Below are positions 43,933-63,687 of a stretch of 64,000 bases of DNA, piece after piece; position 1 is the first letter of the stretch; every line of letters starts with the position of its first letter. This stretch comes from Bacteroidota bacterium. Lineage in GTDB: Bacteria > Bacteroidota > Bacteroidia > Bacteroidales > VadinHA17. The stretch covers positions 5,203-69,202 of the forward strand of contig JAAYDB010000057.1 in assembly GCA_012729475.1 (NCBI GenBank), in the 5' to 3' direction. Both the position numbers and the translations under genes were made by a program. The notes beneath the pieces are model-generated. The model saw nothing but the letters and a program-made list of their open reading frames with translations, was not told where the DNA came from and ran no database searches.

Positions 43933-43940
43933 TAATTTTG
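43933..43940 (+). promoter_or_regulatory. -7 promoter box TAATTTTG
   Basis: TAnnTTTG match. It overlaps the TTG at 43938, which argues for the ATG at 43977 as the true start. Confidence 0.4.
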
Positions 43941-43976
43941 CCCCCTGAAAAAAGAAAGTCAATTCTGTTGATTATC

Positions 43977-46900: not shown

Positions 46901-47273
46901 TAAAAAGAAAAATATATTACAATATTCAGGAGCTTTTAATCCGCTTATTATTTTCCAGGGAGGAGAACTCAAAGAATACAAGGCAGACAGGATGCCCATA
47001 GGTATATATTATGGTGAAGAGATCTCTTTTACCAATTATTTAATAAATGTTTCCAGAGGGGACACTCTTTATATTTTTTCTGATGGTTATGCTTCACAGT
47101 TCGGAGGACCCGGGGGGACAAAATATAAAAAAAGCAATCTTCGTAAATTGCTGTCAGAGATATACTACAGGCCGATGGATGAACAAAGGAAAATCCTTCT
47201 TGAAGAGTTTGAGAGATGGAAAGGTGCTGCCGGTCAGGTAGATGATGTAACCATTCTGGGAATAAGGTTATGA
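43977..47273 (+). CDS. Periplasmic beta-propeller / Y_Y_Y sensor fused via one TM helix to a SpoIIE-type PP2C phosphatase
   Basis: Signal peptide, propeller repeats, Y_Y_Y motif (QYQYFIEG...WSPWS...YTLQIRARD), TM helix, PP2C motifs (SGDFYWI, ADCTGHGVPGAFMS, SDGYASQFGG, DDVTILG). Confidence 0.8.
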   Translation: MRRIFLLVLFILLLPCLLMAQHGSPLLTHYTESRDIENQNWAICQDENNVMLFANRKGILVFDGAEWSLLRIPAVPYSMQKNPYNGKIYIGGYNNFGFLEKDAEGSYSYVSLSGNIVGVGVITKIAFRDSLVYFYGDRSLIRYNLRENVFEMNLNSRPDLPYTGLIITSQNTFVNVTDKGLYRIDSDTLFPIVTGYLTEKEIILFSLPYDEYRVLVGFGSGRLALFDGIKYYDYTIKDENYLQENILSEGIMLGDSTFAFSTLEGGALIVDKYSRDVRFTLNNQNSLPDDEIFAIGSDNTGGLWLSHQYGLTRADLSLPVENYTILPGLHGNLSSALTFNDELYVATSEGVYYLAEVKNYTEVEVLIKKEEPIKTVSVVNEAEMPEQKAEKGRKGIFARILGRTANHIDDIDSDDREEIHVVIQDKPVEQYTWKTVSKLKSIDNIYRKVEGMNEKCRQLVSTPYGILAATNQGLYAIKDHKAELIMKNRYINYIAWTPVGSRYWVGASGGYFAVSFLNGHWRQETPDPGFTNPVHSILQEDSRTLWLGIDNAAYKANLKANNNKVNYIPYVLPNDFPERYMIDMINDTIYIFTEAGIHYYDPGSDRFEFFHEEGASEEPGIIVPVSNHRFYKRGKEWKSLDKPKTKENELSLLKIFDDIVALTLEPDKIWLIDENNQLFGIDRARSSNVKPEVNVYIKSISNGKGVKFTPDNVNFERGDNVLNFEIIAPGYLKQNSTQYQYFIEGNMEDWSPWSERTVYERTIANPGNYTLQIRARDLWGNISEIQSVRFNVKAPFTRTAGFYVATGLLLLLLIIFVIRFRERQLRNKTKFLEDKVQERTFKIESQKQEITSSIEYASRIQMAMLPTEDHIKELFDDYFVIFKPRDIVSGDFYWIGEDSKSVFFTVADCTGHGVPGAFMSTMGISTLNEIISNNHNLQANKILNLLRTKTMTALHQTGKIGEAADGMDIAFCALDKKKNILQYSGAFNPLIIFQGGELKEYKADRMPIGIYYGEEISFTNYLINVSRGDTLYIFSDGYASQFGGPGGTKYKKSNLRKLLSEIYYRPMDEQRKILLEEFERWKGAAGQVDDVTILGIRL

Positions 47274-51174: not shown

Positions 51175-51624
51175 ATGGAAGATATGGCAGCAAGAGTTAT
51201 GTTTTACGGGGTGGATTATATACCTGAGGAAGGATTGACCTATTCGGTTATACCGGCGCGGTACAGAAGAAGGTGGATTTTTGTCAGACATTATGACAGT
51301 GATGGATGGGAGCTTGCAGCCGGGCATATTGAAAAGGGAGAGTCAGCTGAAGATGCTGCGGGCAGAGAGCTTACAGAAGAGACCGGTGCCCGGGAATTTA
51401 TGTTATATCCTGTAGCAACTTATTCTGTGGAAGAGAATGGTGTAAAAGATTACGGGCAACTGTTTTTTGCAGAAGTGACAGAGATGAGTGATCACACTGA
51501 TATTGCAGAGATATCGGAGGTCATTATATGTGATTGGTTACCTGAAGACATGACATATCCGGATATTCAGCCGGTATTATTCAGAAAAGTTATTGGGTAT
51601 ATCAGGGAGAAGAGTCTGTTTTAA
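51175..51624 (+). CDS. NUDIX hydrolase
   Basis: NUDIX box GHIEKGESAEDAAGRELTEETG. ATG at 51175 preferred over the TTG at 51124. Confidence 0.75.
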   Translation: MEDMAARVMFYGVDYIPEEGLTYSVIPARYRRRWIFVRHYDSDGWELAAGHIEKGESAEDAAGRELTEETGAREFMLYPVATYSVEENGVKDYGQLFFAEVTEMSDHTDIAEISEVIICDWLPEDMTYPDIQPVLFRKVIGYIREKSLF

Positions 51625-52805
51625 ATATACTCGAAGCTTATCTTTTTTATCCAGTTTTCCTCAAGCAGGCGTGCTATACGTTTGATTACAGTTCGTCTTA
51701 TCTCCAGTTCTACAGGCAGGGTGGGGTCCTGGTGGGCAATATTTATTCTAGTACCGATAATAAAATGTATTTCGTCACTTTCCATCAACAGGCGGACAAT
51801 TTTGTCAGCAGGGCCCTTTCCCAGTTTAACACTGTTATTGAATGTTTTAAGAATTACATTAACTTTCTGGAGGGTCAGTATGCCTTCAGTGACAAGGTCA
51901 ATACCTTCCAGAAAACTTTCAGGAGGCAGTTCCGGATCTTCAAAAATTAGATTATCAACAATTTTTCTGTTAAGTTCTCGTGCAATTATGTCGGCAGTTG
52001 TTCCTCCGCAGAGAATAACTCTGCCCGGATAATTTTTAACTTTTGCAGCAAGTTCCCTGTCTTTTTCCTTTTCATACGGAGGTCCGGTACACAACAGCAG
52101 TTTTCTGGGTTCACGGAAGTACATGACAGCACAACTGATATCATCTTTTGCCTTGTAATGGTCATTTTTATAGGCCATGCTTACAATTTTCGAGGCCAGC
52201 ATAGATGCCGACAGTGACGGATTACCCGAGACAAGAGTGGCTGCATAAGATGCAATATTATCTCTTTCCCATCCGAAAGGAAATGAATCACTGCCCATTC
52301 CACTCTGTGAAGCTCCGTCGGAACAGATTATTATTCTGTCTTCTTTTTCGGGGATGAAGGTACAGGATCTGAGGATCTTGCCTGCATGTTGTCCTTTTTC
52401 CAGAATTATTTCTTTCCACTGAGGATCAAATAACTTACTACCCCTAAGTATTATGGTTAATGGATTATCGTATTCGAGTATGTTTACTTTTCCGCTGCTT
52501 TCAATATCTGCTATGGTAAACGTAGAATATGCTATTTTTCTGTTACTGCATACAGGCAGGGTATTCATAATTATTTCTGCAATAAGGTCCACCTCCTTGT
52601 GTTCCCGGGTGAAATTGAGGGCCATTGTGGCAGTCAGGGTGGCAAGAATGTTTGCTTTTACACCGTGACCCATACCATCGGATAACACTGCAATTATCCT
52701 GTCCTCTTCCTTAATATATTTATTGAGAAAAACATCGCCGCAGATCCTTTCTCCGTAGTGATTTCTCTGTTGGCTGTTGACCTCAATATAAAAATCCTTT
52801 TGCAT
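51621..52805 (-). CDS. SpoIIE/PP2C-type serine phosphatase with an extra C-terminal domain of about 190 aa; last gene of the hydS-like operon
   Basis: GERICGDVFL and VLSDGMGHGVKANILA PP2C motifs. 11-nt gap to the upstream H-domain gene. Confidence 0.75.
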   Translation of the reverse strand: MQKDFYIEVNSQQRNHYGERICGDVFLNKYIKEEDRIIAVLSDGMGHGVKANILATLTATMALNFTREHKEVDLIAEIIMNTLPVCSNRKIAYSTFTIADIESSGKVNILEYDNPLTIILRGSKLFDPQWKEIILEKGQHAGKILRSCTFIPEKEDRIIICSDGASQSGMGSDSFPFGWERDNIASYAATLVSGNPSLSASMLASKIVSMAYKNDHYKAKDDISCAVMYFREPRKLLLCTGPPYEKEKDRELAAKVKNYPGRVILCGGTTADIIARELNRKIVDNLIFEDPELPPESFLEGIDLVTEGILTLQKVNVILKTFNNSVKLGKGPADKIVRLLMESDEIHFIIGTRINIAHQDPTLPVELEIRRTVIKRIARLLEENWIKKISFEYI

Positions 52806-52816
52806 GAAAATGCTTA

Positions 52817-54694
52817 TCAGTTACCTTTTTTTGTGCTTCTTTTTTTATGTGTTTCAATAATTGAGTTTAACATCTGTTCTGTTTCAGAAGCTCCTTCTCC
52901 AAGAAGAAATCCTATATTCTGAACCATCTCAAGGTTTTTGTCAATAACCTCACTTACTCTGTTGATAAGTTCTTCCCCCTGGACCTCAGGGGCATACAGG
53001 TCGCGAATGACAGCACCGCAGATCTTGTTTTTCTTAATGGGGAAGATTGATATGTTAAGCATCTTTTCTTCTATATGGATATCTTTGCTCACAACGGGTT
53101 CATCTTCTTTCAGGACAAAAGTGAACATATTGTAAACGTTGAAAGGCATAAGCGTTTTCAAATCAGCACCTGCCAGTCCGGGTATTATTTCTGATATTGC
53201 CTGGGCATCTTCCCCAATGATATTTATGAAGCTTTGATTTGAGTGGACAACCTTCAGGGCATTGTCAACTATGACAACAGCACTTGGTAATTTTTCAAGC
53301 ATGTTGTTCATCATCTCTGAGGTATTTTGTGCAAGTTCTTTTTCTTTCAGAGCTAATTCTTCAGATTCTTTCAATGCCCTTTTTGTTTCAGCCAGTTTTC
53401 TGTTAGTCTGTCTAAGAGTCTCTATGTATTCCTGTTTATTGCGGACATTGTATGTGTGGCACATTTCCGGCACCGCAAGTCCTTTGGCAACAGTAGTGGC
53501 AAAGTCGCGGCACGACTTGTATCCACATGCTCCACAATCGAGTTCATCTTTTGGGTCCTGTCTGCCTATTATTTTAAGTACTTCATTTATTGCTTCTTCC
53601 GGAGGTTCCTGTATCCTTTGGTCGTTAGGGGTAAAGGAGCGGGAGAAATCAAGTTTCAACCATCTATCCATATTTTTTTGCCATAAATCCTTGTCAAGAG
53701 TGCTAATTCTTTTCTCTGTATAACGGCTTACGAGAGCCCTTCTCCTGAACTTTTCCATATGGTTCTCCATGCCGGGGCCAAGCAGGCAGCCATGGCAAAA
53801 AAACAGATTAAAATGATGTCTGAGAGTATCAATATATTTATCAAAATCATTAATAGCTTCAAGAGCATCTTCCTTCCCTGAAGCTGTTATGACTCTGCTG
53901 GAAATCATGTCCCTTTTCAGGCCTCCGGCCTGTATTATCCCTGCGGGAACAGGATATAAAGCTCCCCAGTAACCATAAGGCGGATCAAATTCCGACATTT
54001 TTACCAGTCGTTCCTGTATCCCGTATTCATCGAAGAGCTGCCTGAGCTCTATAAATGTCAAAACTCCGTCAACCAGTCTTCCCGACCTGTAAATTAATGC
54101 TTCATCTTTTGCATCAATACACGGACCTATCTGAATGGTGATGACATCTTCTCCATAAAGTTCCTTTACTACCATTGCTGTCGCAATCATCGGTGAAACG
54201 ATAGGAGCCAGATTAGATGCAATTTCCGGATGGAATTTTTCAATCAACTTAACTATAGCAGGACAATTAGCGGTGATGTAGTACTTTCCTTCAGCCTCAC
54301 TGAAGAGTTCTGCATATTTTGACGCAATAAGATCAACACCGAACGAAACCTCATGAACATAGTCGAAGCCAAGTGATCTGATCATAGCCACAAATTTTCT
54401 ATAATCGGTTATGTCATCAAATTCTGAAGCTATACTGGGTTCAATAAGAGCTGCTTTCTTTTTTTCTGATTTAAGGAGGTGTTTAACCTCCTCTTTTGAA
54501 TCACGAAATTCAATGGCACGCGGAGAGCAGGAAACATAACACAGACCACACCCGATACACCTGGAAGGAATAATTGTGGGATGCTCTTTCTGAGGCCTTA
54601 CTTCAATCGCATTAACAGGGCAAACCCGCACACAGGAATATGAATTACGGCATTTATCATCATTGATGTACAGAACCGGCTTCCTTTCGTTCAT
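52817..54694 (-). CDS. hydS: Putative sensory [FeFe]-hydrogenase-like protein (HydS type): 2x ferredoxin-like motifs, H-cluster domain, Cx2Cx4Cx16C motif, PAS
   Basis: H-domain motifs TANCP (54260-54274), GPCIDAKDE, FFCHGCLLGPG. Also CGACGYKSC..(16)..C, a coiled coil, then a PAS-like segment (VVIVDNALKVVHSNQSFINIIG). Confidence 0.75.
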   Translation of the reverse strand: MNERKPVLYINDDKCRNSYSCVRVCPVNAIEVRPQKEHPTIIPSRCIGCGLCYVSCSPRAIEFRDSKEEVKHLLKSEKKKAALIEPSIASEFDDITDYRKFVAMIRSLGFDYVHEVSFGVDLIASKYAELFSEAEGKYYITANCPAIVKLIEKFHPEIASNLAPIVSPMIATAMVVKELYGEDVITIQIGPCIDAKDEALIYRSGRLVDGVLTFIELRQLFDEYGIQERLVKMSEFDPPYGYWGALYPVPAGIIQAGGLKRDMISSRVITASGKEDALEAINDFDKYIDTLRHHFNLFFCHGCLLGPGMENHMEKFRRRALVSRYTEKRISTLDKDLWQKNMDRWLKLDFSRSFTPNDQRIQEPPEEAINEVLKIIGRQDPKDELDCGACGYKSCRDFATTVAKGLAVPEMCHTYNVRNKQEYIETLRQTNRKLAETKRALKESEELALKEKELAQNTSEMMNNMLEKLPSAVVIVDNALKVVHSNQSFINIIGEDAQAISEIIPGLAGADLKTLMPFNVYNMFTFVLKEDEPVVSKDIHIEEKMLNISIFPIKKNKICGAVIRDLYAPEVQGEELINRVSEVIDKNLEMVQNIGFLLGEGASETEQMLNSIIETHKKRSTKKGN

Positions 54695-55182: not shown

Positions 55183-55196
55183 TTGTTATTTAACAA
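55183..55196. promoter_or_regulatory. Palindrome TTGTTA-TT-TAACAA (Rex-type half-sites, non-canonical spacing)
   Basis: Read directly; lies 4 nt upstream of the 18-nt Rex-like operator. Confidence 0.3.
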
Positions 55197-55199
55197 ACA

Positions 55200-55217
55200 T
55201 TGTTATTTTATTAACAA
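55200..55217. promoter_or_regulatory. Candidate Rex operator TTGTTATTTTATTAACAA overlapping the -33 region of the hydCBA promoter
   Basis: 17 of 18 match to the clostridial-type Rex consensus TTGTTAA-N4-TTAACAA. It ends 9 nt upstream of the -7 box, and rex is encoded in the same operon. Confidence 0.55.
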
Positions 55218-55225
55218 TAAAATAT

Positions 55226-55233
55226 TATATTTG
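55226..55233 (+). promoter_or_regulatory. -7 promoter box TATATTTG for the hydC-hydB-hydA-sensor operon
   Basis: TAnnTTTG match 22 nt upstream of the ATG at 55256. This excludes the GTG at 55235 as the start. Confidence 0.5.
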
Positions 55234-55255
55234 TGTGGTATATAAAACATATCTG

Positions 55256-55726
55256 ATGACAACAGAGATTGATACGATTCTCAGAAATTACAAACAAGGG
55301 AAGAGGGATCAGTTAATTCCTCTGCTTCAGGAGATACAGGAGAAAGCCGGATTCTTGTCGGAGGATTCTATTGTTGAGGTCGGCAGGTATGTAGGGCTAA
55401 GCACAACAAAAATCTACAGTCTTGCGACGTTTTATGACGAGTTCAGGTTCTTGCCGGCAGGAAAGATACAGATTTCCGTATGCAATGGTACATCCTGTTA
55501 TCTGAACGGATCAAAAGCAGTTATCGACAAGTTAAAAGAAGAAACAGGGCTATTGCCGGGGCAAACAGACCGCGATGGTATTCTCAGTTATGATATAGTG
55601 ACCTGTATGGGAGGGTGTAATCATGGACCGGTTATCTGTATTAATGGCGAATACTATAACAATGTAAAAGCGGAGCAGTTGCCTGATATGATCAGAAAGC
55701 TAAGGTATATTTTTGATAATGATTAA
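55256..55726 (+). CDS. hydC: NuoE-like [2Fe-2S] subunit of a trimeric [FeFe]-hydrogenase (HydC-like)
   Basis: Cx4C...Cx3C (VCNGTSC ... CMGGCNHGP). Directly abuts the NuoF-like gene. Confidence 0.8.
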   Translation: MTTEIDTILRNYKQGKRDQLIPLLQEIQEKAGFLSEDSIVEVGRYVGLSTTKIYSLATFYDEFRFLPAGKIQISVCNGTSCYLNGSKAVIDKLKEETGLLPGQTDRDGILSYDIVTCMGGCNHGPVICINGEYYNNVKAEQLPDMIRKLRYIFDND

Positions 55727-57661
55727 ATGGAAGACCTGAAAAAATATCTTTTGGAGAATGTGTTGCTGCATGAGTCTGACACTCTCTCTGATGAGGCTGA
55801 ACAGTGTCTGGAGAAGATCAGGAGGGAGAAACCAGACAAGCCGGTTATTTTTTTATCATCCGGCACTGCAGGGAAAATTGCCGGGTCGGATAAGACTTTT
55901 CAGGCCATGACCACTTTTTTTTCTGAAAACAGATATGATGCAGAAATAGTAAGAGTGGGGTGTAGCGGGCCGGCGAATTTTGAACCCGGTCTTTGTATTC
56001 AGCTTCCGGGCAAAAACAAGCTTTTTTTCAGGAATATAACGGAAGAAAAAGTTGAGCCTTTACTGAACGGTGTTTTTCATAATGATATTAACAAGGATGA
56101 TCTGTTTGGTCAGTTGGGGACGAAAGAATTCGGATTATGGCCGGGAGTACAGTTTCTTGATGAACTTTCCTTTTTTTATCACCAGAAACGGGTTGTACTT
56201 GGTAAGTACGGATGCTATGATCCCGAAAGTATTGAAGAATATATAGCCCGGGGTGGTTACCGTACATTCGTAAAGACTATCAGGCATTACACCTATGAAG
56301 AGGTATGTGATATTGTTGTACAGAGCGGATTAAGAGGAAGAAGTGGAGGAGGCTATCCTACCGGTCTGAAGTGGAAGCAGGTCCTTAACTCAGGAGCCTC
56401 AACAAGATATCTGATATGTAATGGCAAAGAGAGTGATCCGGGAGCTTTCACTGACCGGCTTATTCTTGAAAACGACCCTCACAGATTGATAGAAGGAATT
56501 GCAATAGCTGCTTATGCTACAGGGGCGGCACAGGCTATAATATTTTTCCACAGAGGTTCGGATCATATTATGCAAAGGCTTGAAAAAGCAATTGACAGTG
56601 CCAAATCATATGGTCTTCTGGGCCACAATATTTTGTCCAGTGCCTATGACCTCGAAATCATTCTAAGGAAGGAACCGGGAGCATTTGTTTGTGGGGAGGA
56701 GACAGCACTGATCAGTGCTCTTGAGGGCCGAAGAGGGATGCCTCAGCTGAAACCTCCTTATCCGACAACTTCAGGTCTTTTTGGAAAACCTACAGTGATA
56801 AACAATGTGGAAACCCTGATGAATGTGCCTCTTATTATGCAAAATGGTCCTGAGTGGTTCCGTTCTCTCGGAACAGAAAACAGTCCGGGCACTAAAATTT
56901 TTGCTGTTGCAGGGAAAGGCCGTATGTCAGGAGTTATAGAGGTTGAGATGGGTACCAGCATAAAAAGTATTGTTGAAGACATTGCTGATGGAGTAAAAGA
57001 GGGTAAGAAGCTGAAAGCTGTACAGATGGGAGGTGCTTCAGGGTCGTTTATTACACCTGAAAACCTGGATGTAATAGTTGATTATGAAGAATTGAGTTCC
57101 AGAGGTATTATGATGGGCTCAGGTGGTTTCATTGTTATTGATGAGACAATTTGTATGGTCGACCTTGTAAGATATTACATGGAGTTTATGCATGCCGAAA
57201 GCTGTGGAAAATGTATACCCTGCAGGGAAGGAACAGGACGTATGCTGGAGATACTCGAAAGTATTATAAGGAAACCCGCCAGTGAAGATTCAGGTACCAC
57301 TCTGGAGCGGTTCAAGGGAGTTATGCAGCTGGAAACCATTGCTTCGGTAATGAGAGATACTTCTATGTGCGGACTGGGCCAGACAGCCCCTAATCCCTTT
57401 ATAAGTGCCCTGGAAAATTTCAGGGAGGAATTTGAAGAACATATTTTTGACAGGATATGCAGGGCTAATATATGCAGAGGCCTGAGATCCTTTTCTATTG
57501 ATGTGGAAAAATGTACCGGGTGTACAGCCTGTGCATCAAAATGTCCTGTAAATGCTATTTATGGCACCCGTCTTCAGCCTTTTTTTATCGTCGAAGAAAA
57601 GTGTACGGGGTGTGGTATATGTTATGATGTTTGTAAGTTCAGTGCAATAAAAGTCAAATAG
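55727..57661 (+). CDS. hydB: NuoF-like flavoprotein subunit (HydB-like): FMN/NAD(H) site, N3-type 4Fe-4S, C-terminal 2x[4Fe-4S] ferredoxin domain
   Basis: GRSGGGYPTGLKW, ESDPGAFTDR, ESCGKCIPCREG, CTGCTACASKCP and CTGCGICYDVC. Confidence 0.85.
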   Translation: MEDLKKYLLENVLLHESDTLSDEAEQCLEKIRREKPDKPVIFLSSGTAGKIAGSDKTFQAMTTFFSENRYDAEIVRVGCSGPANFEPGLCIQLPGKNKLFFRNITEEKVEPLLNGVFHNDINKDDLFGQLGTKEFGLWPGVQFLDELSFFYHQKRVVLGKYGCYDPESIEEYIARGGYRTFVKTIRHYTYEEVCDIVVQSGLRGRSGGGYPTGLKWKQVLNSGASTRYLICNGKESDPGAFTDRLILENDPHRLIEGIAIAAYATGAAQAIIFFHRGSDHIMQRLEKAIDSAKSYGLLGHNILSSAYDLEIILRKEPGAFVCGEETALISALEGRRGMPQLKPPYPTTSGLFGKPTVINNVETLMNVPLIMQNGPEWFRSLGTENSPGTKIFAVAGKGRMSGVIEVEMGTSIKSIVEDIADGVKEGKKLKAVQMGGASGSFITPENLDVIVDYEELSSRGIMMGSGGFIVIDETICMVDLVRYYMEFMHAESCGKCIPCREGTGRMLEILESIIRKPASEDSGTTLERFKGVMQLETIASVMRDTSMCGLGQTAPNPFISALENFREEFEEHIFDRICRANICRGLRSFSIDVEKCTGCTACASKCPVNAIYGTRLQPFFIVEEKCTGCGICYDVCKFSAIKVK

Positions 57662-57666
57662 CTGAT

Positions 57667-59388
57667 ATGCTTTTTACTATTCAGGTCAATAACAGGAAAA
57701 TCAAAGCTGAAAAAGGAGAAACTATTCTGTCAGCTCTTAATCGTAACGGCATCAGGATCCCGACTCTTTGCAGGATGGCTGATTTTTCTCCAACCGGAGC
57801 CTGCCGGATATGTGTTGTTGAAGTGGAAGGAAGAGACCGTCTTGTAACTGCCTGTTCACAACCTGTGGAAGAATGGATGAAGATCAGAACACATTCTCCC
57901 CGTGTTATAACTGCACGCAAAACAATTGTGGAAATGCTGTTATCAAATCATCCTGATGACTGCCTTTATTGCGATAAAAACCTTAATTGTGAATTACAGA
58001 GACTGGCTGAAGAGTTGAATATAAGAGAAAGGCGTATTCGTGCAAAAAAAATAAAACCCCGTCTTGACCAGTCGAGCCCTGCTATTGTAAGAGAGTTATC
58101 AAAATGCATCCTTTGCGGCAGATGTATCAGAGTGTGTGAAGAACTTATATCTGCCAATTCAATCGATTTTATTGGAAAAGGAAGCAAAACACATGTTGGT
58201 CCGGCGATGGACCGTGACTTTAATTTTTCCAGCTGTATTCATTGCGGACAATGCGTTATGGTTTGTCCTACCGGTGCACTTCATGAAAAACATAATTTGG
58301 TGGAAGTACAGGATTACCTTCATCATAACGACATAGCAAAAGTTATTCAGTATTCTCCTCTGGTCACTATAGGTATAGCCGAAGAGATGGGGATAAAATA
58401 TAACAAAGATTTTGACAGGACACTGAATTCCATTCTTCGCAGAATAGGTTTTAACAAAATATTTAATTCAGGAGTAGGAACTGATATCTGTATTACAGAA
58501 ATAGCTGGTCAGCTTCTTGAAAGGATAAAGAACGAAACGGAAGATCCCTTGTATATCTCAGCGTGTCCTTCATGGGTTAAATATGCCGAGCAGTTTATGC
58601 CTGATATCATTCCTCAATTATCAACAGTCAAGTCGCCCCAGCAGTTGACAGGGGGTCTTATTAAGACACTTATTGCAGATAGTTCGGGAATAATGCCTGA
58701 GAAGATTTTTTCGGTATCCGTTACTCCATGCATGGCTATGAAGTTCGAAGCCAGAAGAGATGGTATGATGAGAAAGGGTATCAGTGATGTTGATTCAGTT
58801 ATGACGGTGCGGGAGCTGGCAAGGCTGATAAGGCTTTATGGTATCGATATTTCAAACATTGAGCCTGAACCGGCCGATGAGCCGATGGAGGGAAGTAGTT
58901 CTGCAGCTGGCCTGACTGAAATATCAGGCGGAATTACAGAAGCCGTTTTACGCTTAGTGTATTTTTATGAATACAAAAATGATGCTGATAAGCAGCTATT
59001 CAAGAGATTACGTGCCGGAGGTGCATTCAGGGAAACATCTCTTATGATTGCAAACAGGAAGATAGCAGTTGCCGTTGTTGACGGGCTGACTGGTCTGGAA
59101 AAACTCAGGGCAGCCTTCAATGCAGGCAGAAAATATAATCTTATTGAAGTGATGACTTGTCCGGGAGGATGCATTAACGGCGCAGGTATGCCTTTCGCTA
59201 TGCATGAAATTAACATAAAGTCAAGAAGGAAAATAATATATCAGGCTGATGAAACTGATCCGATAAATCTTCCGTGTAAATCGCCGGTTAACATAAATAT
59301 GTATGATAAATACTTAAAAGAGAATGAGGTATTGTCAGATAAAAAAGTTTTTTATACACATTATATAAAGAGGAATGTATTGTTGTGA
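57667..59388 (+). CDS. hydA: [FeFe]-hydrogenase large subunit, HydA-like (M3 architecture), with non-canonical H-cluster pocket residues
   Basis: N-terminal 2Fe-2S (C35, C46, C49, C63), HPDDCLYC..C His-ligated cluster, 2x CxxCxxCxxxCP. H-domain motifs are ISACPSW, TPCMAMKFE, EVMTCPGGCINGAG. Confidence 0.8.
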   Translation: MLFTIQVNNRKIKAEKGETILSALNRNGIRIPTLCRMADFSPTGACRICVVEVEGRDRLVTACSQPVEEWMKIRTHSPRVITARKTIVEMLLSNHPDDCLYCDKNLNCELQRLAEELNIRERRIRAKKIKPRLDQSSPAIVRELSKCILCGRCIRVCEELISANSIDFIGKGSKTHVGPAMDRDFNFSSCIHCGQCVMVCPTGALHEKHNLVEVQDYLHHNDIAKVIQYSPLVTIGIAEEMGIKYNKDFDRTLNSILRRIGFNKIFNSGVGTDICITEIAGQLLERIKNETEDPLYISACPSWVKYAEQFMPDIIPQLSTVKSPQQLTGGLIKTLIADSSGIMPEKIFSVSVTPCMAMKFEARRDGMMRKGISDVDSVMTVRELARLIRLYGIDISNIEPEPADEPMEGSSSAAGLTEISGGITEAVLRLVYFYEYKNDADKQLFKRLRAGGAFRETSLMIANRKIAVAVVDGLTGLEKLRAAFNAGRKYNLIEVMTCPGGCINGAGMPFAMHEINIKSRRKIIYQADETDPINLPCKSPVNINMYDKYLKENEVLSDKKVFYTHYIKRNVLL

Positions 59389-59460
59389 AATCCGGGCCAT
59401 TGAAGGTCGGTACTTTGAAACAGTATTAGTAAGAGGGTTAAGAAAATTAAAGGAGAAGTG

Positions 59461-61422
59461 ATGCTGGTCTATACAATTAAAGAGCTTTGTCGTACCTGTT
59501 ACACCTGTGTCAGGGAGTGTCCTGCAAAAGCGATCCGTATAGTGGGGGGACAGGCAGAAGTGATTGATGAGAGGTGCATAGGATGCGGTAACTGTACTAA
59601 AGTTTGCAGCCAGGGGGCAAAGGTATTTCTCCGTACTACCGACAGAGTACTTAAACTGCTCCATAATGGTTCGGATGTAGCTGCAATAGTGGCTCCCAGT
59701 TTTCCTGCTGAATTTGGAGATATACCTGATTATCATTTACTGATAGGTATGATAAGGGCCCTCGGCTTTAAATATGTAAATGAAGTATCATTTGGGGCGG
59801 ATATTGTGGCTGATAAGTACAAAAAGCTTCTGGAAGGCAGTGATAAATACTATATCACATCTGATTGTCCCTCCATAGTCAACTATATAAAGTATTACCA
59901 TCCGGGTCTGGTTGATCGTCTGGCCCCAATAGTTTCACCCATGGTTGCCATGAGCAGGGTTGTCCGCAAAAAATTTGGCAGTAATACAAAAATCGTTTTT
60001 ATAGGTCCGTGTGTGGCAAAAAAAGCAGAAAGTTCTGAGATTGATGAGGTTATTACTTTTCTGGAATTGAGGGACATGCTTACCTCTGCCGGTATATCAC
60101 CTGAGAAGGTTATTCCTTCTGATTTTGATCCGCCCAGGGGAGGCAGGGGCTCTATATTTCCAGTAACGAGGGGCTTGTTACAGACAGCACACATTAATGA
60201 TGATGCCATAACAGGTAATATTATTGCTGCAGAAGGAAGGATAGGTTTTCAGGAGGCTCTTAAGGAACTGGAAGCCGGACTAATAAAGAATCAGCATATG
60301 GAGCTTTTGTGCTGTGAGGGATGCATCATGGGTCCCGGACTTTCCAAGAACGGGAAACAATATACCAGGAGAGCCCTTGTAAGTGCTTATGCCAGTCAGA
60401 AAATGGATGACCTTGATCATAGCTTATGGGAAGAAGCTTTTGACGAATATGGGAAAATTGATTTATCAGTACATCATAAAGCAGAAGATCACAGGTTTGA
60501 AATACCTGACGAGACGGAGATCGAAGACGTACTTATTTCAATGGGCAAGTTTACAAAAAAAGATCATCTGGATTGTGGTGCATGCGGTTATGAGAGTTGT
60601 ATTGAACATGCAATAGCTATTAAGAAGGGTCTTGCTGAAATTGAGATGTGTCTGCCATATACAATAGAAAAATTACATAAATCAGTTCAGGATCTGGCCT
60701 TGTCAAACGAGAAACTTAGCTCTATGAAGGAAGCTTTGAGGCAATCTGAAAAGCTGGCACACATGGGACAGTTGTCAGCCGGTATAGCTCATGAACTGAA
60801 TAATCCACTCGGGGTGGTAATAATGTACAGCAATATTCTCCTTGATGAATGTCAGCCTGAAGATCCTGTTATAGAAGATATTAAACTTATTGTTGAACAG
60901 GCCGGGCGATGCAAGAAAATAGTGGCAGGCCTTCTTAATTTTGCCAGAAAAAATCAGGTTAATCATCAGATAGTCAATGTTAAGGATCTGATAAATCATA
61001 GTTTTGAAAGTGTCATAATCCCGGAGACTATAAAAACGAGTATCGTTGATAAGACGAGTAATCCTGATGCCATGATCGATCCGGAACAAATAATGCAGGT
61101 TACCACAAACCTGATAAAAAATGCTGTTGATGCCATGCATAGCGGAGGAGAACTGATTGTTACTCTTGAGGATACACTGAGTGATGTCAGTATAACCATT
61201 TCGGATACAGGAAGCGGTATCAAAGAAGAAGACAGAGTAAAAATATTTGAACCTTTCTATACAACAAAAGGTATAGGAAAAGGAACGGGCCTCGGACTTG
61301 CAACAGCTTATGGCATTGTTAAAATGCATAAGGGGCAGATAAGTGTAGAATCAAATGATGATCCCGGAGCAGGTCCAACAGGAACAAGTTTTAAAATACT
61401 CCTTCCACGAAGAAAGGAATGA
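59461..61422 (+). CDS. H-cluster-domain protein fused to a histidine kinase (ferredoxin motifs, H-domain, Cx2Cx4Cx16C, coiled coil, HisKA, HATPase_c)
   Basis: CRTCYTCVRECP, CIGCGNCTKVC. H-domain motifs TSDCP (59857-59871), GPCVAKKAE, LLCCEGCIMGPG. CGACGYESC..(16)..C. H-box AGIAHELNNPL, N box NLIKNAVDA, G boxes DTGSGI and GTGLGL. Confidence 0.8.
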   Translation: MLVYTIKELCRTCYTCVRECPAKAIRIVGGQAEVIDERCIGCGNCTKVCSQGAKVFLRTTDRVLKLLHNGSDVAAIVAPSFPAEFGDIPDYHLLIGMIRALGFKYVNEVSFGADIVADKYKKLLEGSDKYYITSDCPSIVNYIKYYHPGLVDRLAPIVSPMVAMSRVVRKKFGSNTKIVFIGPCVAKKAESSEIDEVITFLELRDMLTSAGISPEKVIPSDFDPPRGGRGSIFPVTRGLLQTAHINDDAITGNIIAAEGRIGFQEALKELEAGLIKNQHMELLCCEGCIMGPGLSKNGKQYTRRALVSAYASQKMDDLDHSLWEEAFDEYGKIDLSVHHKAEDHRFEIPDETEIEDVLISMGKFTKKDHLDCGACGYESCIEHAIAIKKGLAEIEMCLPYTIEKLHKSVQDLALSNEKLSSMKEALRQSEKLAHMGQLSAGIAHELNNPLGVVIMYSNILLDECQPEDPVIEDIKLIVEQAGRCKKIVAGLLNFARKNQVNHQIVNVKDLINHSFESVIIPETIKTSIVDKTSNPDAMIDPEQIMQVTTNLIKNAVDAMHSGGELIVTLEDTLSDVSITISDTGSGIKEEDRVKIFEPFYTTKGIGKGTGLGLATAYGIVKMHKGQISVESNDDPGAGPTGTSFKILLPRRKE

Positions 61423-61524
61423 AGATTCTTATCAGTTGAGGCTGTTGTATGTATTGATGGAAAGCTGATTGATATGGGAGGGGAGAATAATTTATTTATT
61501 AGATTGCAAAAAATACACAGAAGG

Positions 61525-61920
61525 ATGAAGAAGAGTGATTTTATGATACTCGTGGCAGATGATGATCCTGATTATCTTTACCAGACGGTAACCAATCTGG
61601 GCAAAGCAGGATACAGGACGGTGGCGGCAGAGAGTCAGGCAGAGGCAGAAGCTGTAATATCAAGAATGAAACCAGATCTTGCAATATTCGATCTGATGAT
61701 GGAAAATGATGACAGCGGTTTTATCCTGTGTTATAAGATACGAAAAAAATATCCTGATGTTCCGGTAATTCTTGCTACGGCAGTCTCACGTGAGACAGGA
61801 ATTACTTTCAGTCTCGATTCTGAAATGGATAAATCATGGATAAGGGCAGACAGATATCTGGAAAAGGGTATCCGGCCTGAACAACTCGATCAGGAAATAA
61901 TGAAATTGTTAAAAATATAA
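61525..61920 (+). CDS. Stand-alone response-regulator receiver protein
   Basis: ILVADDD...DLAIFDLMM...VILATA...EKG receiver pattern with no output domain. The start is ambiguous (61474, 61525 or 61543). Confidence 0.7.
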   Translation: MKKSDFMILVADDDPDYLYQTVTNLGKAGYRTVAAESQAEAEAVISRMKPDLAIFDLMMENDDSGFILCYKIRKKYPDVPVILATAVSRETGITFSLDSEMDKSWIRADRYLEKGIRPEQLDQEIMKLLKI

Positions 61921-61921
61921 T

Positions 61922-63052
61922 ATGGCTGAATTAAAAGTCCTTATTATTGATGATGAACCCGGAATACGTTCCGGCGTAAAAAGGATACTGAAGGATTTTC
62001 ATGTTACTTATCCCTTTATGGATGAGGATTATGTTTTTCATATAATGGAAGCCTCCACAGGAGAGGAGGGAATTGATATCATTGAACAGAACATTCCGGA
62101 TATTCTCCTTCTGGACAATAAATTGCCCGGTATCCAGGGAGTTGACGTTCTGGAGATCATTCGTGAGAAGAAATATGATATTGCTGTTGCCATGATAACT
62201 TCCTATGCTTCTCTTGATGTAGCTGTCAGGGCAACCCGTGACGGTGCAACAGATTTTATACCCAAACCTTTTACTCCACAGGAACTTAAGTCAAGCATTG
62301 AGAATATTTCAAAACAATTGTATCTGAAAAGGATTACCCACGACATGAATCAGGAGGGAAAGAAGATAAGATACCAGTTTCTTTCGGTATTGTCTCATGA
62401 ATTAAAAGCCCCTCTTAATGCTCTTGAAGGATATCTCCTGATGATGCAGGAAAAACAGGCAGGCGACAGGATTGACGATTATATTAATCATATTGACAGG
62501 TCCTTACAGAGAATACAGGGTATGAGGAACCTTATTATGGATCTCCTTGATTTTACTAAGATACGTCTTGAACGGAAAGATGAAAAAATACAGAAACTGA
62601 ATCTGGCAGATGTCGCAGCTGCAGCTTTAGTGACAGTACAGCCTTATGCAATTCAGATGGAAGTTACTGTTAATCTTGATGTGAAGAAGGAGATAATAAT
62701 TATGGCTGACCCGACAGACATAGATATCATTTTTAATAATCTTACAAGCAATGCTGTTAAATATAACAAAGTAGGAGGGAAGGTTGATATTATTATTGAT
62801 AGTGATGATAATGAAGTAATTATGAAATTTGCAGATACAGGCATAGGTATCTCGGAAGATGACAGAAAGATCCTTTTTAAGGATTTTATGCGTGTTAAAA
62901 ACGAACAGACGCGTAACATATCAGGGAGTGGTCTGGGATTATCCATTGTTAAAAAAGTTGTTGAACTTTATTTTGGATCTATTACCGTAGAAAGCAAACC
63001 GGATAAGGGGAGTATTTTTACCATAAGGTTACCAAAAAATCTGAAACATTAA
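61922..63052 (+). CDS. Receiver-histidine kinase hybrid (REC, HisKA, HATPase_c)
   Basis: VLIIDDEPGIR...LLLDNKLPG...KPF receiver. H-box LSHELKAPL, N box LTSNAVKYN, G boxes DTGIGI and GSGLGLS. Confidence 0.8.
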   Translation: MAELKVLIIDDEPGIRSGVKRILKDFHVTYPFMDEDYVFHIMEASTGEEGIDIIEQNIPDILLLDNKLPGIQGVDVLEIIREKKYDIAVAMITSYASLDVAVRATRDGATDFIPKPFTPQELKSSIENISKQLYLKRITHDMNQEGKKIRYQFLSVLSHELKAPLNALEGYLLMMQEKQAGDRIDDYINHIDRSLQRIQGMRNLIMDLLDFTKIRLERKDEKIQKLNLADVAAAALVTVQPYAIQMEVTVNLDVKKEIIIMADPTDIDIIFNNLTSNAVKYNKVGGKVDIIIDSDDNEVIMKFADTGIGISEDDRKILFKDFMRVKNEQTRNISGSGLGLSIVKKVVELYFGSITVESKPDKGSIFTIRLPKNLKH

Positions 63053-63063
63053 ACTAATTGCAA

Positions 63064-63687
63064 ATGAGACTACCGGCAAAAACTGTGGAAAGGCTGAGTG
63101 AGTACCGAAGGACTCTTCTGGAATGCCTGAGCGAAAAAAAGAATTATATTTTTTCACATGAGCTGGCCGCCCGGCTTCATATTACAGCTGTCCAGGTAAG
63201 ACGCGACCTGATGCTGATTGGATATTCCTCAGTGCAACGAAAAGGCTATGATGTAAAAGAGCTTATCGATACAATAGGAACTATAATCGATTCCACTGAA
63301 AGCCTTAATGTTGCAATAATTGGTATTGGGAATTTTGGAAGAGCTTTGGCTGCCTATTTTAAAGGCAAGAGATCGAAGCTTAATCTGGTTGCCTCATTCG
63401 ATACCGATCCTCAGAAAATAAATAAGGTAATAGCCGGAGTGAAGTGCTATCCACACAATGAGCTTGAAAAGATCATCAAGGAGCTTAATATAAAAATTGC
63501 AATACTTACTGTCCCCCCGGAATTTGGAAAAGAAACCGCAGAAGAAATTGTGAGGTACGGAATAAAAGGTATACTGAATTTTACAACTATTCCTGTTAAT
63601 GTTCCATCGTGGGTATTCCTTGAAGAATATGACATGATCACCTCCATCGAAAAAGTTGCATATTTCGTAAAAGAAAACCAGCTATAG
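63064..63687 (+). CDS. rex: Redox-sensing transcriptional repressor Rex
   Basis: N-terminal winged helix (TVERLSEYRRTL...SHELAARLHITAVQVRRDL) followed by a Rossmann motif (IIGIGNFGRAL). Confidence 0.85.
   Translation: MRLPAKTVERLSEYRRTLLECLSEKKNYIFSHELAARLHITAVQVRRDLMLIGYSSVQRKGYDVKELIDTIGTIIDSTESLNVAIIGIGNFGRALAAYFKGKRSKLNLVASFDTDPQKINKVIAGVKCYPHNELEKIIKELNIKIAILTVPPEFGKETAEEIVRYGIKGILNFTTIPVNVPSWVFLEEYDMITSIEKVAYFVKENQL

What the first reader, a model, noticed from the sequence alone, without database searches (positions are those of the whole stretch)
57667..59388. The HydA-like catalytic subunit carries sensory-type substitutions at the proton-relay Cys and second-sphere residues
Seen in sequence: the three H-cluster signature motifs read ISACPSW, TPCMAMKFE and EVMTCPGGCINGAG. 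The canonical forms are TSCCPxW, MPCxxKxxE and ExMxCxxGCxxG. By motif alignment, residue 299 is Ala (codon GCG at 58561-58563) instead of the proton-relay Cys. Residue 353 is Thr instead of Met (58723-58725). Residue 358 is Met instead of Lys (58738-58740), with a Lys one position later. Established knowledge: in model enzymes such as CpI and CrHydA1, replacing the relay Cys or Lys358 severely impairs catalysis or cofactor binding. Loss of the relay Cys is a hallmark of putative sensory hydrogenases. Inference: either this NuoE/NuoF-associated enzyme uses a different proton pathway, or the whole trimeric complex is slow and regulatory rather than a bulk H2-evolving bifurcating enzyme. None of the three H-domains in this island has the relay Cys (A, N and D at that position).
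Basis: partly seen in the sequence, partly recalled or inferred. Interest (0 to 1): 0.7.

Follow-up and report, generated by a model that had tools for sequence, protein, structure and literature searches.

The report
Hydrogenase subunit lacking its proton relay
A widespread group of uncultured Bacteroidales carries a three-subunit, NADH-linked iron hydrogenase whose catalytic pocket has lost the textbook proton pathway and a key cofactor-holding lysine, so it is either an unusually wired, probably slow hydrogenase or no longer a hydrogenase, although gene surveys count it as a standard hydrogen producer.

Summary
ORF 57667-59388 is an M3-type HydA next to NuoE- and NuoF-like genes. Alignments to four solved structures put Ala at the CpI C299 position, Thr at M353 and Met at K358, with K359 kept. 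I found further changes: E279I, E282Q, S232L, A230S, A272T, T275C, F417T, G418E, and the C-terminal His pair replaced. All iron-sulfur and H-cluster cysteines are intact. The pattern is a lineage signature: it holds in 187 distinct sequences (at least 71% identical) from Bacteroidales metagenome-assembled genomes. The surrounding island is also conserved: two sensory hydrogenase paralogues (N and D at the relay site), response regulators, Rex and a Rex-type operator. In related genomes ribF, hydG and hydE follow. The protein scores below NCBI's cut-offs for group A hydrogenases. I found no paper describing it. My best reading (about 0.45) is a metabolic, Rex- and H2-regulated HydABC-type enzyme that still binds an H-cluster. 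It would take protons by another route, possibly through the clade-invariant Glu418, and is likely slow. The main rival (about 0.3) is that the H-domain keeps only its [4Fe-4S] cluster. The idea that the trimer itself is a sensor is poorly supported. This is a new variant of a known kind.

The parts
57667..59388 (+). HydA-like subunit, 573 aa, M3 architecture: [2Fe-2S], His-ligated [4Fe-4S], two [4Fe-4S] and an H-domain
   Evidence: Pfam finds Fer2_4, NADH-G_4Fe-4S_3, Fer4 domains and Fe_hyd_lg_C. The best solved relatives are 8a6t, 7q4v, 7p5h and CpI. All cluster cysteines and His95 are invariant in a 40-sequence alignment.
58555..58575 (+). L1 motif ISACPSW. Ala299 (58561-58563) occupies the proton-relay Cys position. 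Cys300 is the cluster ligand.
   Evidence: In the clade, position 299 is A 88%, V 7%, T 3%, S 2%, and C300 is 100%.
58723..58749 (+). L2 motif TPCMAMKFE: Thr353 (canonical Met), Cys355, Met358 (canonical Lys), Lys359
   Evidence: In the clade, position 353 is T 95% and S 5%, M358 is 98% and K359 is 100%.
59146..59187 (+). L3 motif EVMTCPGGCINGAG. The Met equivalent to CpI M497 and both Cys ligands are kept.
58501..58524 (+). Helix that carries the canonical proton pathway: Ile279 (canonical Glu), Gln282 (canonical Glu), Arg286
   Evidence: In the clade, position 279 is I, L or V and position 282 is Q in 88%.
58915..58920 (+). Thr417-Glu418 (canonical Phe-Gly). Glu418 is 99% conserved in the clade and is my candidate for an alternative proton relay.
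   Evidence: [quoted passage not shown]
58480..58491 (+). Thr272 and Cys275. These are clade-specific conserved replacements of the canonical Ala and Thr, upstream on the same helix.
   Evidence: Their role is unknown.
55727..57661 (+). HydB, a NuoF-like Bfu-type flavoprotein with an FMN/NADH site, a [4Fe-4S] cluster and a C-terminal 2x[4Fe-4S] domain. Its N-terminal thioredoxin-like domain has lost its Cys ligands.
55235..55726 (+). HydC, a NuoE-like thioredoxin-like [2Fe-2S] subunit
55200..55217 (.). Rex-type palindromic operator TTGTTATTTTATTAACAA, just upstream of hydC
   Evidence: The pattern is present upstream of hydC in 64 of 66 related loci, about 80-fold enriched. It matches the TTGTTANNNNNNTAACAA Rex boxes reported for Thermoanaerobacterium (PMC5886521).
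59458..61422 (+). Sensory-type H-domain protein fused to a histidine kinase, with Asp at the relay position and K358 kept
61474..63052 (+). A response regulator and a hybrid response-regulator/histidine kinase
   Evidence: Conserved in synteny.
63058..63687 (+). Rex redox-sensing repressor
   Evidence: Conserved in synteny.
52817..54694 (-). Second sensory-type H-domain protein, with Asn at the relay position, Gly353 and Tyr417 as in T. maritima HydS
   Evidence: PMC10055695
54721..54966 (-). Small thioredoxin-like [2Fe-2S] protein
51621..52805 (-). SpoIIE/PP2C-type phosphatase paired with the second sensor

Best explanation
The ORF encodes the HydA-type subunit of a three-subunit HydABC (Bfu-type) iron-sulfur flavoenzyme. 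It belongs to a large, uncharacterised lineage of uncultured Bacteroidales. What is shown: every iron-sulfur ligand along the electron path and all four cysteines of the H-cluster site are invariant. The canonical proton route is dismantled from entrance to relay: H565 is Asp, H569 is variable, E282 is Gln, E279 is Ile/Leu/Val and C299 is Ala. The Lys that holds the distal cyanide in model enzymes is Met. The whole island is conserved, with two H2-sensor paralogues, response regulators, Rex and a Rex-type operator, and with ribF, hydG and hydE next door in relatives. What is inferred: the subunit still binds an H-cluster in a remodelled pocket and still interconverts H+ and H2. Protons would reach the bridgehead amine by a different route. 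My candidate is the clade-invariant Glu418, which sits beside residue 417. That residue has shrunk from Phe to Ala/Ser/Thr and abuts the amine ligand in model enzymes. By analogy with group C and D enzymes, turnover is probably much lower than in prototypical group A, and the overpotential higher. The complex is a metabolic NADH- and ferredoxin-linked enzyme. Its expression is set by the NADH/NAD+ ratio through Rex and by H2 through the two neighbouring sensors. It is not itself a sensor.
For: Residue assignments come from ungapped alignments to four solved structures and a 140-sequence alignment. The signature holds in 187 distinct sequences. All Fe-S ligands are invariant. Within the clade, first-shell positions are more conserved than the H-domain background (0.92 against 0.74, 98th percentile). 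The former distal proton-pathway positions are relaxed (0.60). Glu418 is 99% conserved. Among 50%-identity representatives, an acidic residue at 418 occurs in 13 of 43 proteins without C299 but in only 1 of 91 with it (Fisher p = 1e-6, not corrected for phylogeny). Position 417 is described as very close to the amine ligand (PMC10055695). Group D TamHydS shows that a Glu can replace the relay Cys (PMC10407848). HydB has all the Bfu-type modules. Synteny holds across 80 species-level genomes. A Rex-type operator lies upstream of hydC in 64 of 66 loci. hydG and hydE follow rex in 50 and 49 of 60 loci.
Against: In model enzymes K358 is needed to hold the di-iron subcluster (my own knowledge of the CpI and CrHydA1 mutant literature). 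Here it is Met, and a nearby Gly has become Glu. That removes one positive charge and adds one negative charge near an anionic cofactor. Across the wider set of non-canonical relatives, the pocket positions are no more conserved than ordinary sites (0.30 against 0.27). That is what loss of the cofactor would look like. The protein scores below both curated NCBIfam cut-offs. Glu418 is not at the position of the group D relay: TamHydS E252 corresponds to a group A Val, which I place at CpI V423 from the published TamHydS-to-CpI residue equivalences, and the window has Ile there. I could not measure the distance from Glu418 to the cofactor. The AlphaFold2 model was poor and no coordinates were available. 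There are no biochemical data for any clade member.
Confidence: 0.45

Rival explanations
1. The H-domain has lost the di-iron subcluster and keeps only its [4Fe-4S] cluster, as in eukaryotic Nar1 proteins. The trimer would then not be a hydrogenase. It could be an NADH:ferredoxin oxidoreductase or an electron hub for an unidentified partner.
For: K358 is Met, G418 is Glu and S232 is Leu or Met. Loss of K358 is tightly coupled to loss of C299 among representatives (33 of 45 against 4 of 96). Pocket positions drift like ordinary sites across non-canonical relatives while the Cys ligands stay invariant. The relatives P0125, P0128 and P0291 sit in the same kind of island but have different pocket residues. 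The protein is below the NCBIfam cut-offs, and NCBI does not name these proteins hydrogenases. About half of the Bfu family are not hydrogenases, and in the NiFe-HydABCSL enzyme the H-cluster is replaced by a [4Fe-4S] cluster (PMC9304861).
Against: Within the clade the first-shell positions are under above-average constraint. M497, P324, Q325 and S319 are retained. The operon has no other catalytic domain or extra subunit that could supply a third substrate. The island carries hydG and hydE and two H2-sensor paralogues. Those maturases would be needed for the sensors in any case.
Confidence: 0.3
2. This is the first reader's second alternative: the whole NuoE/NuoF/HydA trimer is a slow, regulatory H2-sensing device rather than a metabolic enzyme.
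For: C299A and M353T mirror group C and D putative sensors (PMC8163306; PMC10407848). Those enzymes are roughly a thousand-fold slower than group A (PMC11803613).
Against: None of the three subunits has a PAS, kinase, phosphatase or DNA-binding domain. HydA has the M3 architecture, not the M2e/M2f sensor architecture, and lacks the C-terminal four-Cys motif. Two dedicated sensors with output domains flank the operon. The operon is itself a regulatory target, through the Rex-type box. HydB keeps full NADH and ferredoxin modules.
Confidence: 0.08
3. The substitutions are fully compensated and the enzyme is a normal, fast confurcating hydrogenase. For example, the new conserved Cys275 or Glu418 would give an equally efficient proton route.
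For: Clade-specific conserved polar residues (Thr272, Cys275, Ser230, Glu418) line the region. The island has the regulators and maturases expected of the main fermentative hydrogenase.
Against: Every characterised natural or engineered enzyme without the canonical pathway is much slower (PMC10407848; PMC11803613; bioRxiv 10.64898/2026.09.22.753672). The Ser-His-Glu entrance motif proposed as necessary for high activity is incomplete here: D558 and Y563 replace the two His.
Confidence: 0.1

Closest known systems
Group A3 electron-bifurcating [FeFe]-hydrogenase HydABC (FeFe-Bfu), e.g. A. woodii (8a6t), T. kivui (7q4v/8a5e) and T. maritima (7p5h)
   Same: The gene order is hydC-hydB-hydA. HydA has the M3 architecture with all accessory cluster ligands. 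HydB is Bfu-type with FMN, NADH site and a C-terminal 2x[4Fe-4S] domain. These are the best sequence matches in the PDB. Sensory hydrogenase genes lie next to the operon, as reported for group A3 operons in Hydrogenedentota (PMC11406978).
   Different: The L1 and L2 motifs and the whole Cys-Glu-Ser-Glu-Arg proton pathway are altered, and K358 is lost. All 82 canonical representatives have C299, E279, M353 and K358 by selection, and 99% also have E282. The protein scores below the curated family cut-offs. Its nearest representative outside the clade is only 44-45% identical.
Putative sensory [FeFe]-hydrogenases: group D TamHydS and group C TmHydS
   Same: There is no relay Cys (Ala in both model sensors). 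Position 353 carries a hydroxyl residue, as in group D. The canonical proton pathway is replaced by non-protonatable residues (PMC8163306; PMC10407848).
   Different: HydA here has the M3 rather than the M2e/M2f architecture. It has no C-terminal Cx2Cx4Cx16C cluster and no PAS domain. It keeps M497, which is Ser or Leu in the sensors. It lacks the group D relay Glu at the V423 position. It is a subunit of an NADH/ferredoxin complex. K358M is not a feature of the kinase-linked sensor in the same island.
H-domain proteins without a di-iron site: eukaryotic Nar1/CIAO3. Also the HydA subunit of NiFe-HydABCSL.
   Same: The four cluster cysteines are retained while second-sphere residues are not. 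There is a precedent for a Bfu-type HydA with no H-cluster (PMC9304861).
   Different: The NiFe-type HydA matched this protein only over the N-terminal residues 4-205, so it lacks the H-domain. That enzyme has extra NiFe subunits, which are absent here. Resemblance to Nar1 rests on my own recollection and was not tested.
Bacteroides thetaiotaomicron 'group A3' HydA (Bt-M3)
   Same: It comes from a Bacteroidales host and is an M3 catalytic subunit of a predicted HydABC. It showed only 0.22% of CrHydA1 activity after semisynthetic maturation and about 5 TPM expression (PMC12578642).
   Different: I could not obtain its sequence, so I do not know whether it shares this pocket. The only length on record is for the B. 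caccae group A3 gene, 1767 nt (about 588 aa, against 573 here). No sensory hydrogenases are listed for those strains. This is a lead only.

Membership tests
[FeFe] hydrogenase group A (NCBIfam TIGR02512; NF040763 'NADH-dependent, group A6') | Profile score at or above the curated cut-off | tested here: not met
   352.7 bits against a cut-off of 405.95 for TIGR02512, and 588.4 against 765 for NF040763. The Pfam H-domain family PF02906 is met, at 225 bits against 22.1.
[FeFe] hydrogenase group A | L1 motif TSCCPxW with the relay Cys (CpI C299) | tested here: not met
   The motif reads ISACPSW. Ala299 is confirmed by four pairwise alignments. No clade member has Cys at 299.
[FeFe] hydrogenase group A | L2 motif MPCxxKxxE (M353, K358) | tested here: not met
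   The motif reads TPCMAMKFE. Position 353 is Thr or Ser in 100% and position 358 is Met in 98% of the clade.
[FeFe] hydrogenase group A | L3 motif ExMxCxxGCxxG and the four Cys ligands of the H-cluster | tested here: met
   The motif reads EVMTCPGGCINGAG. C300, C355, C498 and C502 are 100% conserved.
[FeFe] hydrogenase group A | Proton pathway R286-E282-S319-E279-C299, plus the S320/H569/E278 entrance | tested here: not met
   R/K286, S319 and E278 are kept. E282 is Gln, E279 is Ile/Leu/Val, C299 is Ala, H565 is Asp and H569 is Tyr/His/Phe.
[FeFe] hydrogenase (any group) | Binds the [2Fe] subcluster and turns over H2 | not testable with these tools
   This needs maturation, infrared/EPR spectroscopy and activity assays. 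The AlphaFold2 model had a mean pLDDT of 57.7 and gave no coordinates.
HydABC / Bfu-type electron-bifurcating complex | Adjacent genes for NuoE-like, NuoF-like and HydA/NuoG-like subunits | tested here: met
   The three genes run from 55235 to 59388, separated by at most 5 nt. This order is conserved in 80 related loci.
HydABC / Bfu-type electron-bifurcating complex | BfuB cofactor set: FMN/NADH site, [4Fe-4S] cluster and the C-terminal 2x[4Fe-4S] (B3/B4) domain. BfuC has a [2Fe-2S] cluster. | tested here: met
   Pfam finds Complex1_51K, NADH_4Fe-4S and two Fer4 domains. Full-length alignments to 9bov_B, 7t2r_B, 9n5u_B and 7q4v_B (E around 1e-153 to 1e-160) conserve the Cys motifs. Only the N-terminal thioredoxin-like cluster (B5) ligands are lost.
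HydABC / Bfu-type electron-bifurcating complex | Coupled NADH + reduced ferredoxin to third-substrate activity | not testable with these tools
   This is a biochemical assay.
Sensory [FeFe] hydrogenase (groups C and D) | Relay Cys absent and canonical proton pathway absent | tested here: met
   definition from PMC8163306.
Sensory [FeFe] hydrogenase (groups C and D) | M2e/M2f architecture: N-terminal 2x[4Fe-4S] only, a C-terminal four-Cys cluster (Pfam PF04060), with or without PAS or kinase domains | tested here: not met
   HydA has the Fer2_4 and NADH-G domains and no PF04060, PAS or kinase domain. The two neighbouring paralogues do have PF04060.
Sensory [FeFe] hydrogenase group D | Alternative relay Glu at the TamHydS E252 position (a Val in group A, taken here as CpI V423) | tested here: not met
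   The window has Ile423, and the clade has Leu, Met, Ile or Phe there. PMC10407848 states that this position is Val in group A. The mapping to V423 is my own, from the published TamHydS-to-CpI residue equivalences.

The most novel reading that the evidence does not exclude
The Bacteroidales HydABC-like complexes are a distinct functional class of [FeFe]-hydrogenase. In this reading an H-cluster sits in a Lys-less pocket and is fed by a proton route that evolved independently of both the group A Cys-Glu-Ser-Glu-Arg route and the group D Glu252 route. The route would be centred on Glu418. The pocket would give different catalytic bias, H2 affinity or inhibitor tolerance inside an electron-bifurcating scaffold. 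The related lineages with other pocket residues (Ser, Leu, Asn, Phe or His at 299; Ala, Gly or Arg at 358) would then be a natural library of second-sphere solutions.
Probability: 0.3. Interest if true: 0.8.

Novelty: new variant of a known kind. Interest (0 to 1): 0.6.

Why it matters
There are three reasons.

1. Mechanism. Group A [FeFe]-hydrogenases are held to depend on C299, E279, E282 and K358. This lineage is naturally conserved and widespread, has a group A3-type architecture and lacks all four. It directly tests which second-sphere residues are needed to bind the di-iron cofactor and to move protons. It also offers ready-made reversion experiments: A299C, M358K, E418Q and T353M.

2. 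Ecology. These genes are labelled 'iron-only hydrogenase group A' or 'HndD' by JGI. Homology-based surveys would probably count them as bifurcating H2 producers. They occur in many Bacteroidales genomes from fens, lake sediments, soils and digesters. If they are slow or inactive, H2 budgets inferred from such surveys are overstated for these organisms.

3. Regulation. The island places two different H2 sensors, Rex, maturases and the enzyme side by side. That makes it a compact system for studying H2- and NADH-dependent control.

Tried and rejected
- **Alignment shift.** I rejected the idea that a shift restores a relay Cys. L1 aligns without gaps to four solved structures, and P301 and W303 anchor it.
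- **Group D relay.** I rejected Glu418 as the equivalent of the group D relay. TamHydS E252 corresponds to a group A Val, which I place at CpI V423 from the published residue equivalences. The window has Ile there.
- **Classical Rex box.** A scan with TGTGAA-N6-TTCACA gave nothing above chance (30 matches against 42.6 expected). The TTGTTA-N6-TAACAA variant was found by reading the intergenic region.
- **Phylogeny.** A neighbour-joining tree of 137 H-domains with 100 bootstraps supports only the clade itself (100) and its sister P0136 (91). Deeper nodes had 0-2% support. I therefore make no claim about whether the non-canonical proteins share one origin.
- **Structure.** AlphaFold2 on a 40-sequence alignment gave a mean pLDDT of 57.7, with H-domain blocks at 52-89 (mostly above 70). 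No coordinates were accessible, so pocket geometry could not be examined, and I did not run a fold search on it.
- **B. thetaiotaomicron sequence.** I looked for the sequence of its low-activity group A3 enzyme in the paper's supplements and did not find it.
- **Motif strings in the literature.** Searching for SACPSW, SACPAW and similar strings returned only unrelated hits. Five literature searches found no description of this clade.
- **Solved sensory hydrogenase.** A PDB search with the sensor H-domain found no solved sensory hydrogenase to use as a reference.
- **Other hydrogenases in the same genomes.** I could not check this.
Full report
**What is in the sequence**

ORF 57667-59388 (+) encodes a 573-aa protein. 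Pfam finds an N-terminal [2Fe-2S] domain, the NuoG-type His-ligated [4Fe-4S] motif, a double [4Fe-4S] ferredoxin domain and the iron-hydrogenase large-subunit domain. This is the M3 architecture of clostridial and bifurcating hydrogenases. The best solved relatives are the HydA subunits of the bifurcating enzymes of A. woodii (8a6t, E 7e-128), T. kivui and T. maritima, followed by C. pasteurianum CpI.

All four alignments are ungapped through the three signature motifs. They place Ala299 opposite the relay Cys, Thr353 opposite Met353 and Met358 opposite Lys358, with Lys359 retained.

Window numbering equals CpI numbering up to about residue 425, so I could read further pocket residues directly:
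- A230 is Ser and S232 is Leu.
- A272 is Thr and T275 is Cys.
- E279 is Ile and E282 is Gln.
- F417 is Thr and G418 is Glu.
- R286, S319, P324, Q325 and the Met equivalent to M497 are kept.
- All four H-cluster cysteines are kept.
- At the C-terminus, the His pair that a recent preprint identifies as the proton entry of group A enzymes (CpI H565/H569) is Asp558 and Tyr563.

The canonical proton route is therefore taken apart along its whole length, not just at the relay Cys.

These residues are conserved in orthologues.

**Is it real and conserved?**

A search of 5.8 billion proteins gave 7,896 hits. The best 120 are all 73-79% identical 573-aa proteins, and where named they come from Bacteroidales or Bacteroidota metagenome-assembled genomes. 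A scan of one genome per species found relatives in 197 stretches. The best 80 loci are nearly all Bacteroidales genomes from fens, lake sediments, soils and digesters.

In 187 distinct sequences at least 71% identical to the window protein:
- Position 299 is Ala in 88%, otherwise Val, Thr or Ser, and never Cys.
- Position 353 is Thr or Ser in 100%.
- Position 358 is Met in 98%.
- Position 279 is Ile, Leu or Val.
- Position 282 is Gln in 88%.
- Position 418 is Glu in 99%.
- Thr272 (98%) and Cys275 (93%) are new conserved residues.
- The four H-cluster cysteines are invariant.
- All ligands of the accessory clusters are invariant too.

This is a lineage signature under selection, not an error or a pseudogene.

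**How far is it from canonical enzymes?**

In a library clustered at 50% identity the clade collapses to one representative (70% identical). The next hits are only 44-45% identical.

I selected 82 canonical representatives by requiring C299, E279, M353 and K358. Of these, 99% also have E282.

About 40 other M3-type representatives lack C299 and carry many different residues at 299, 353 and 358. Loss of K358 goes with loss of C299: 33 of 45 proteins without C299 lack K358, against 4 of 96 with it.

A neighbour-joining tree supports only the clade and one sister (bootstrap 100 and 91). Deeper nodes are unresolved.

NCBI's curated models place the protein nearest 'NADH-dependent [FeFe] hydrogenase, group A6', but below the cut-off (588 against 765 bits). 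It is also below the general group A cut-off (353 against 406). This fits the neutral names NCBI gives these proteins, whereas JGI calls them group A or HndD.

**The island**

Upstream, separated by 0 and 5 nt, lie a NuoE-like [2Fe-2S] protein and a 644-aa NuoF-like protein. The latter aligns end to end with the flavoprotein subunits of solved Bfu-type bifurcating enzymes: 9bov_B, 7t2r_B, 9n5u_B and the T. kivui, T. maritima and A. woodii HydB. It keeps the FMN/NADH site, the [4Fe-4S] motif and the C-terminal double-cluster domain. Only the N-terminal thioredoxin-like domain has lost its cysteines.

Downstream come the kinase-fused sensor, a response regulator, a hybrid regulator-kinase and Rex. 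On the other strand lie a small [2Fe-2S] protein, the second sensor and a SpoIIE-type phosphatase. This order is kept in essentially all 80 related loci, as far as each contig reaches.

In relatives whose contigs extend further, rex is followed by ribF (60 of 60 loci), hydG (50 of 60), a TM1266-like regulator and hydE (49 of 60). The window ends 313 nt after rex, so I cannot see these genes in it.

The hydC upstream region carries the palindrome TTGTTATTTTATTAACAA at 55200-55217. The pattern occurs upstream of hydC in 64 of 66 loci. There are 48 other matches in the remaining 1.22 Mb, which is roughly an 80-fold enrichment. It matches the TTGTTANNNNNNTAACAA Rex boxes predicted upstream of adhE, ech, hfs and hydG in Thermoanaerobacterium (PMC5886521).

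**Interpretation**

The sensory-type label is apt for C299A and M353T. Group C and D enzymes lack the relay Cys, mostly having Ala, and lack the rest of the pathway. A hydroxyl residue at 353 is a conserved group D trait (PMC8163306; PMC10407848).

The protein is not a member of those groups, however. It has the M3 architecture and no C-terminal four-Cys cluster, PAS or kinase domain. It keeps M497. It lacks the group D relay Glu, which the paper says is Val in group A. I place that Val at V423 from the published residue equivalences, and the window has Ile there.

The idea that the trimer itself is regulatory fits poorly. It has no output domain, it sits between two dedicated sensors, it is itself behind a Rex-type operator, and it retains full NADH and ferredoxin modules.

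The regulatory logic is derepression when NADH accumulates, with modulation by H2. That is what one expects for an enzyme that disposes of reducing equivalents as H2.

**Two readings remain**

*(a) Still a hydrogenase with a re-routed proton supply.* The evidence in favour:
- The electron path to the H-cluster site is intact.
- Within the clade, first-shell positions are more conserved than the H-domain average (0.92 against 0.74, 98th percentile). The abandoned distal pathway positions are relaxed (0.60). This subset was chosen after the fact.
- Glu418 is invariant and lies next to residue 417, which has shrunk from Phe to Ala, Ser or Thr. In model enzymes that position lies very close to the amine ligand (PMC10055695).
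- Acidic residues at 418 occur almost only in proteins that lack C299 (13 of 43 against 1 of 91).
- Group D shows that a Glu can take over the relay role, at the cost of roughly thousand-fold lower rates.

*(b) The di-iron subcluster is gone.* The evidence in favour:
- K358 is Met and a Glu has been added, both unfavourable for an anionic cofactor.
- Across the wider non-canonical relatives the 15 pocket and pathway positions are no better conserved than ordinary sites (0.30 against 0.27). In canonical enzymes the figures are 0.89 against 0.44.
- Three divergent relatives sit in the same kind of island with quite different pocket residues.
- Bfu-type complexes without an H-cluster are known (PMC9304861).

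Against (b), the operon offers no alternative catalytic module.

I put (a) at about 0.45, (b) at 0.3, a fully compensated fast enzyme at 0.1 and the sensor idea at 0.08.

**Literature**

I found no description of this clade or its motifs. The library is incomplete, and older comparative papers such as Calusinska 2010 and Poudel 2016 could not be searched.

One lead is the 'group A3' catalytic subunit of B. thetaiotaomicron. It gave 0.22% of CrHydA1 activity and is barely transcribed (PMC12578642). I could not obtain its sequence, so I cannot say whether it shares this pocket.

**Verdict**

This is a new variant of a known kind: a HydABC-type enzyme with a non-canonical pocket. It is worth biochemical follow-up.

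Noticed in passing
window 55183-55217; upstream of hydC in loci L001-L080: A conserved Rex-type palindrome (TTGTTA-N6-TAACAA) lies 30-180 nt upstream of the NuoE-like gene in 64 of 66 related loci. In the window it reads TTGTTATTTTATTAACAA at 55200-55217, and a shorter palindrome, TTGTTATTTAACAA, lies at 55183-55196. An earlier count gave wrong coordinates (55210-55227). The correct ones are here.
   Followed up: yes
L001 14063-17520; L081 11611-14090 (beyond the window's 3' end): In related genomes rex is followed by ribF, hydG (497 bits against a cut-off of 312), a TM1266/CPF_0552-like small regulator and hydE. The island therefore also carries H-cluster maturases and a flavin cofactor gene. 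The window ends before this region.
   Followed up: partly
window 59458-61422: The histidine-kinase-fused sensor has Asp at the relay position in 73 of 73 orthologues and keeps K358. From my own recollection, Cys-to-Asp is the one relay substitution that preserves activity in model enzymes. This sensor may therefore have a working proton relay, unlike its neighbours.
   Followed up: partly
representatives P0123, P0135, P0143 and others: About 24% of otherwise canonical A3-like representatives read TSCSP, with Ser at the CpI C300 ligand position, as does T. kivui HydA1 (7q4v). This variant is already noted in the literature (PMC4284687, PMC11406978).
   Followed up: partly
window 55727-56120 (HydB residues 1-130): The N-terminal thioredoxin-like domain of the NuoF-like subunit has lost most of the Cys ligands seen in solved homologues (SSGTAG and GCSGPANFEP against GSCG and GCIGLCFFEP). 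The extra [2Fe-2S] cluster (B5) is probably absent.
   Followed up: partly
L081 5605-9257: A more distant relative (46% identical, with the same A299/T353/M358/T417/E418 signature) has its NuoF-like and HydA-like genes each split in two, and it has no kinase-fused sensor gene. This could be frameshifts, sequencing errors or a true split architecture.
   Followed up: no
L014 and L016: Two separate contigs of the same genome bin (fen_982) each carry a copy of the island with HydA 74% identical to the window. This is either a duplication or a mixed bin.
   Followed up: no
L056: One of the 80 loci is labelled Chloroflexota. It is a 4.4-kb contig whose HydA is 73% identical to the Bacteroidales clade, so it is probably a binning contaminant.
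   Followed up: no
protein P0121: The top-scoring representative is a 4,122-aa protein made of at least six near-identical 444-aa H-domain units (TSCCASW, MPCTVKKTE). It is likely an assembly artefact or a tandem polyprotein, and it is unrelated to the finding.
   Followed up: partly
window 43938-47273: A 1,111-aa protein with a C-terminal SpoIIE-type phosphatase domain lies about 4 kb upstream of the island. It is a second phosphatase of the same family as the sensor-linked one.
   Followed up: no
window 55235: The NuoE-like ORF is listed from a GTG at 55235, and an in-frame ATG follows seven codons later (residue 8, at 55256). The true start, and hence the exact spacing to the Rex-type box, is uncertain.
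   Followed up: no
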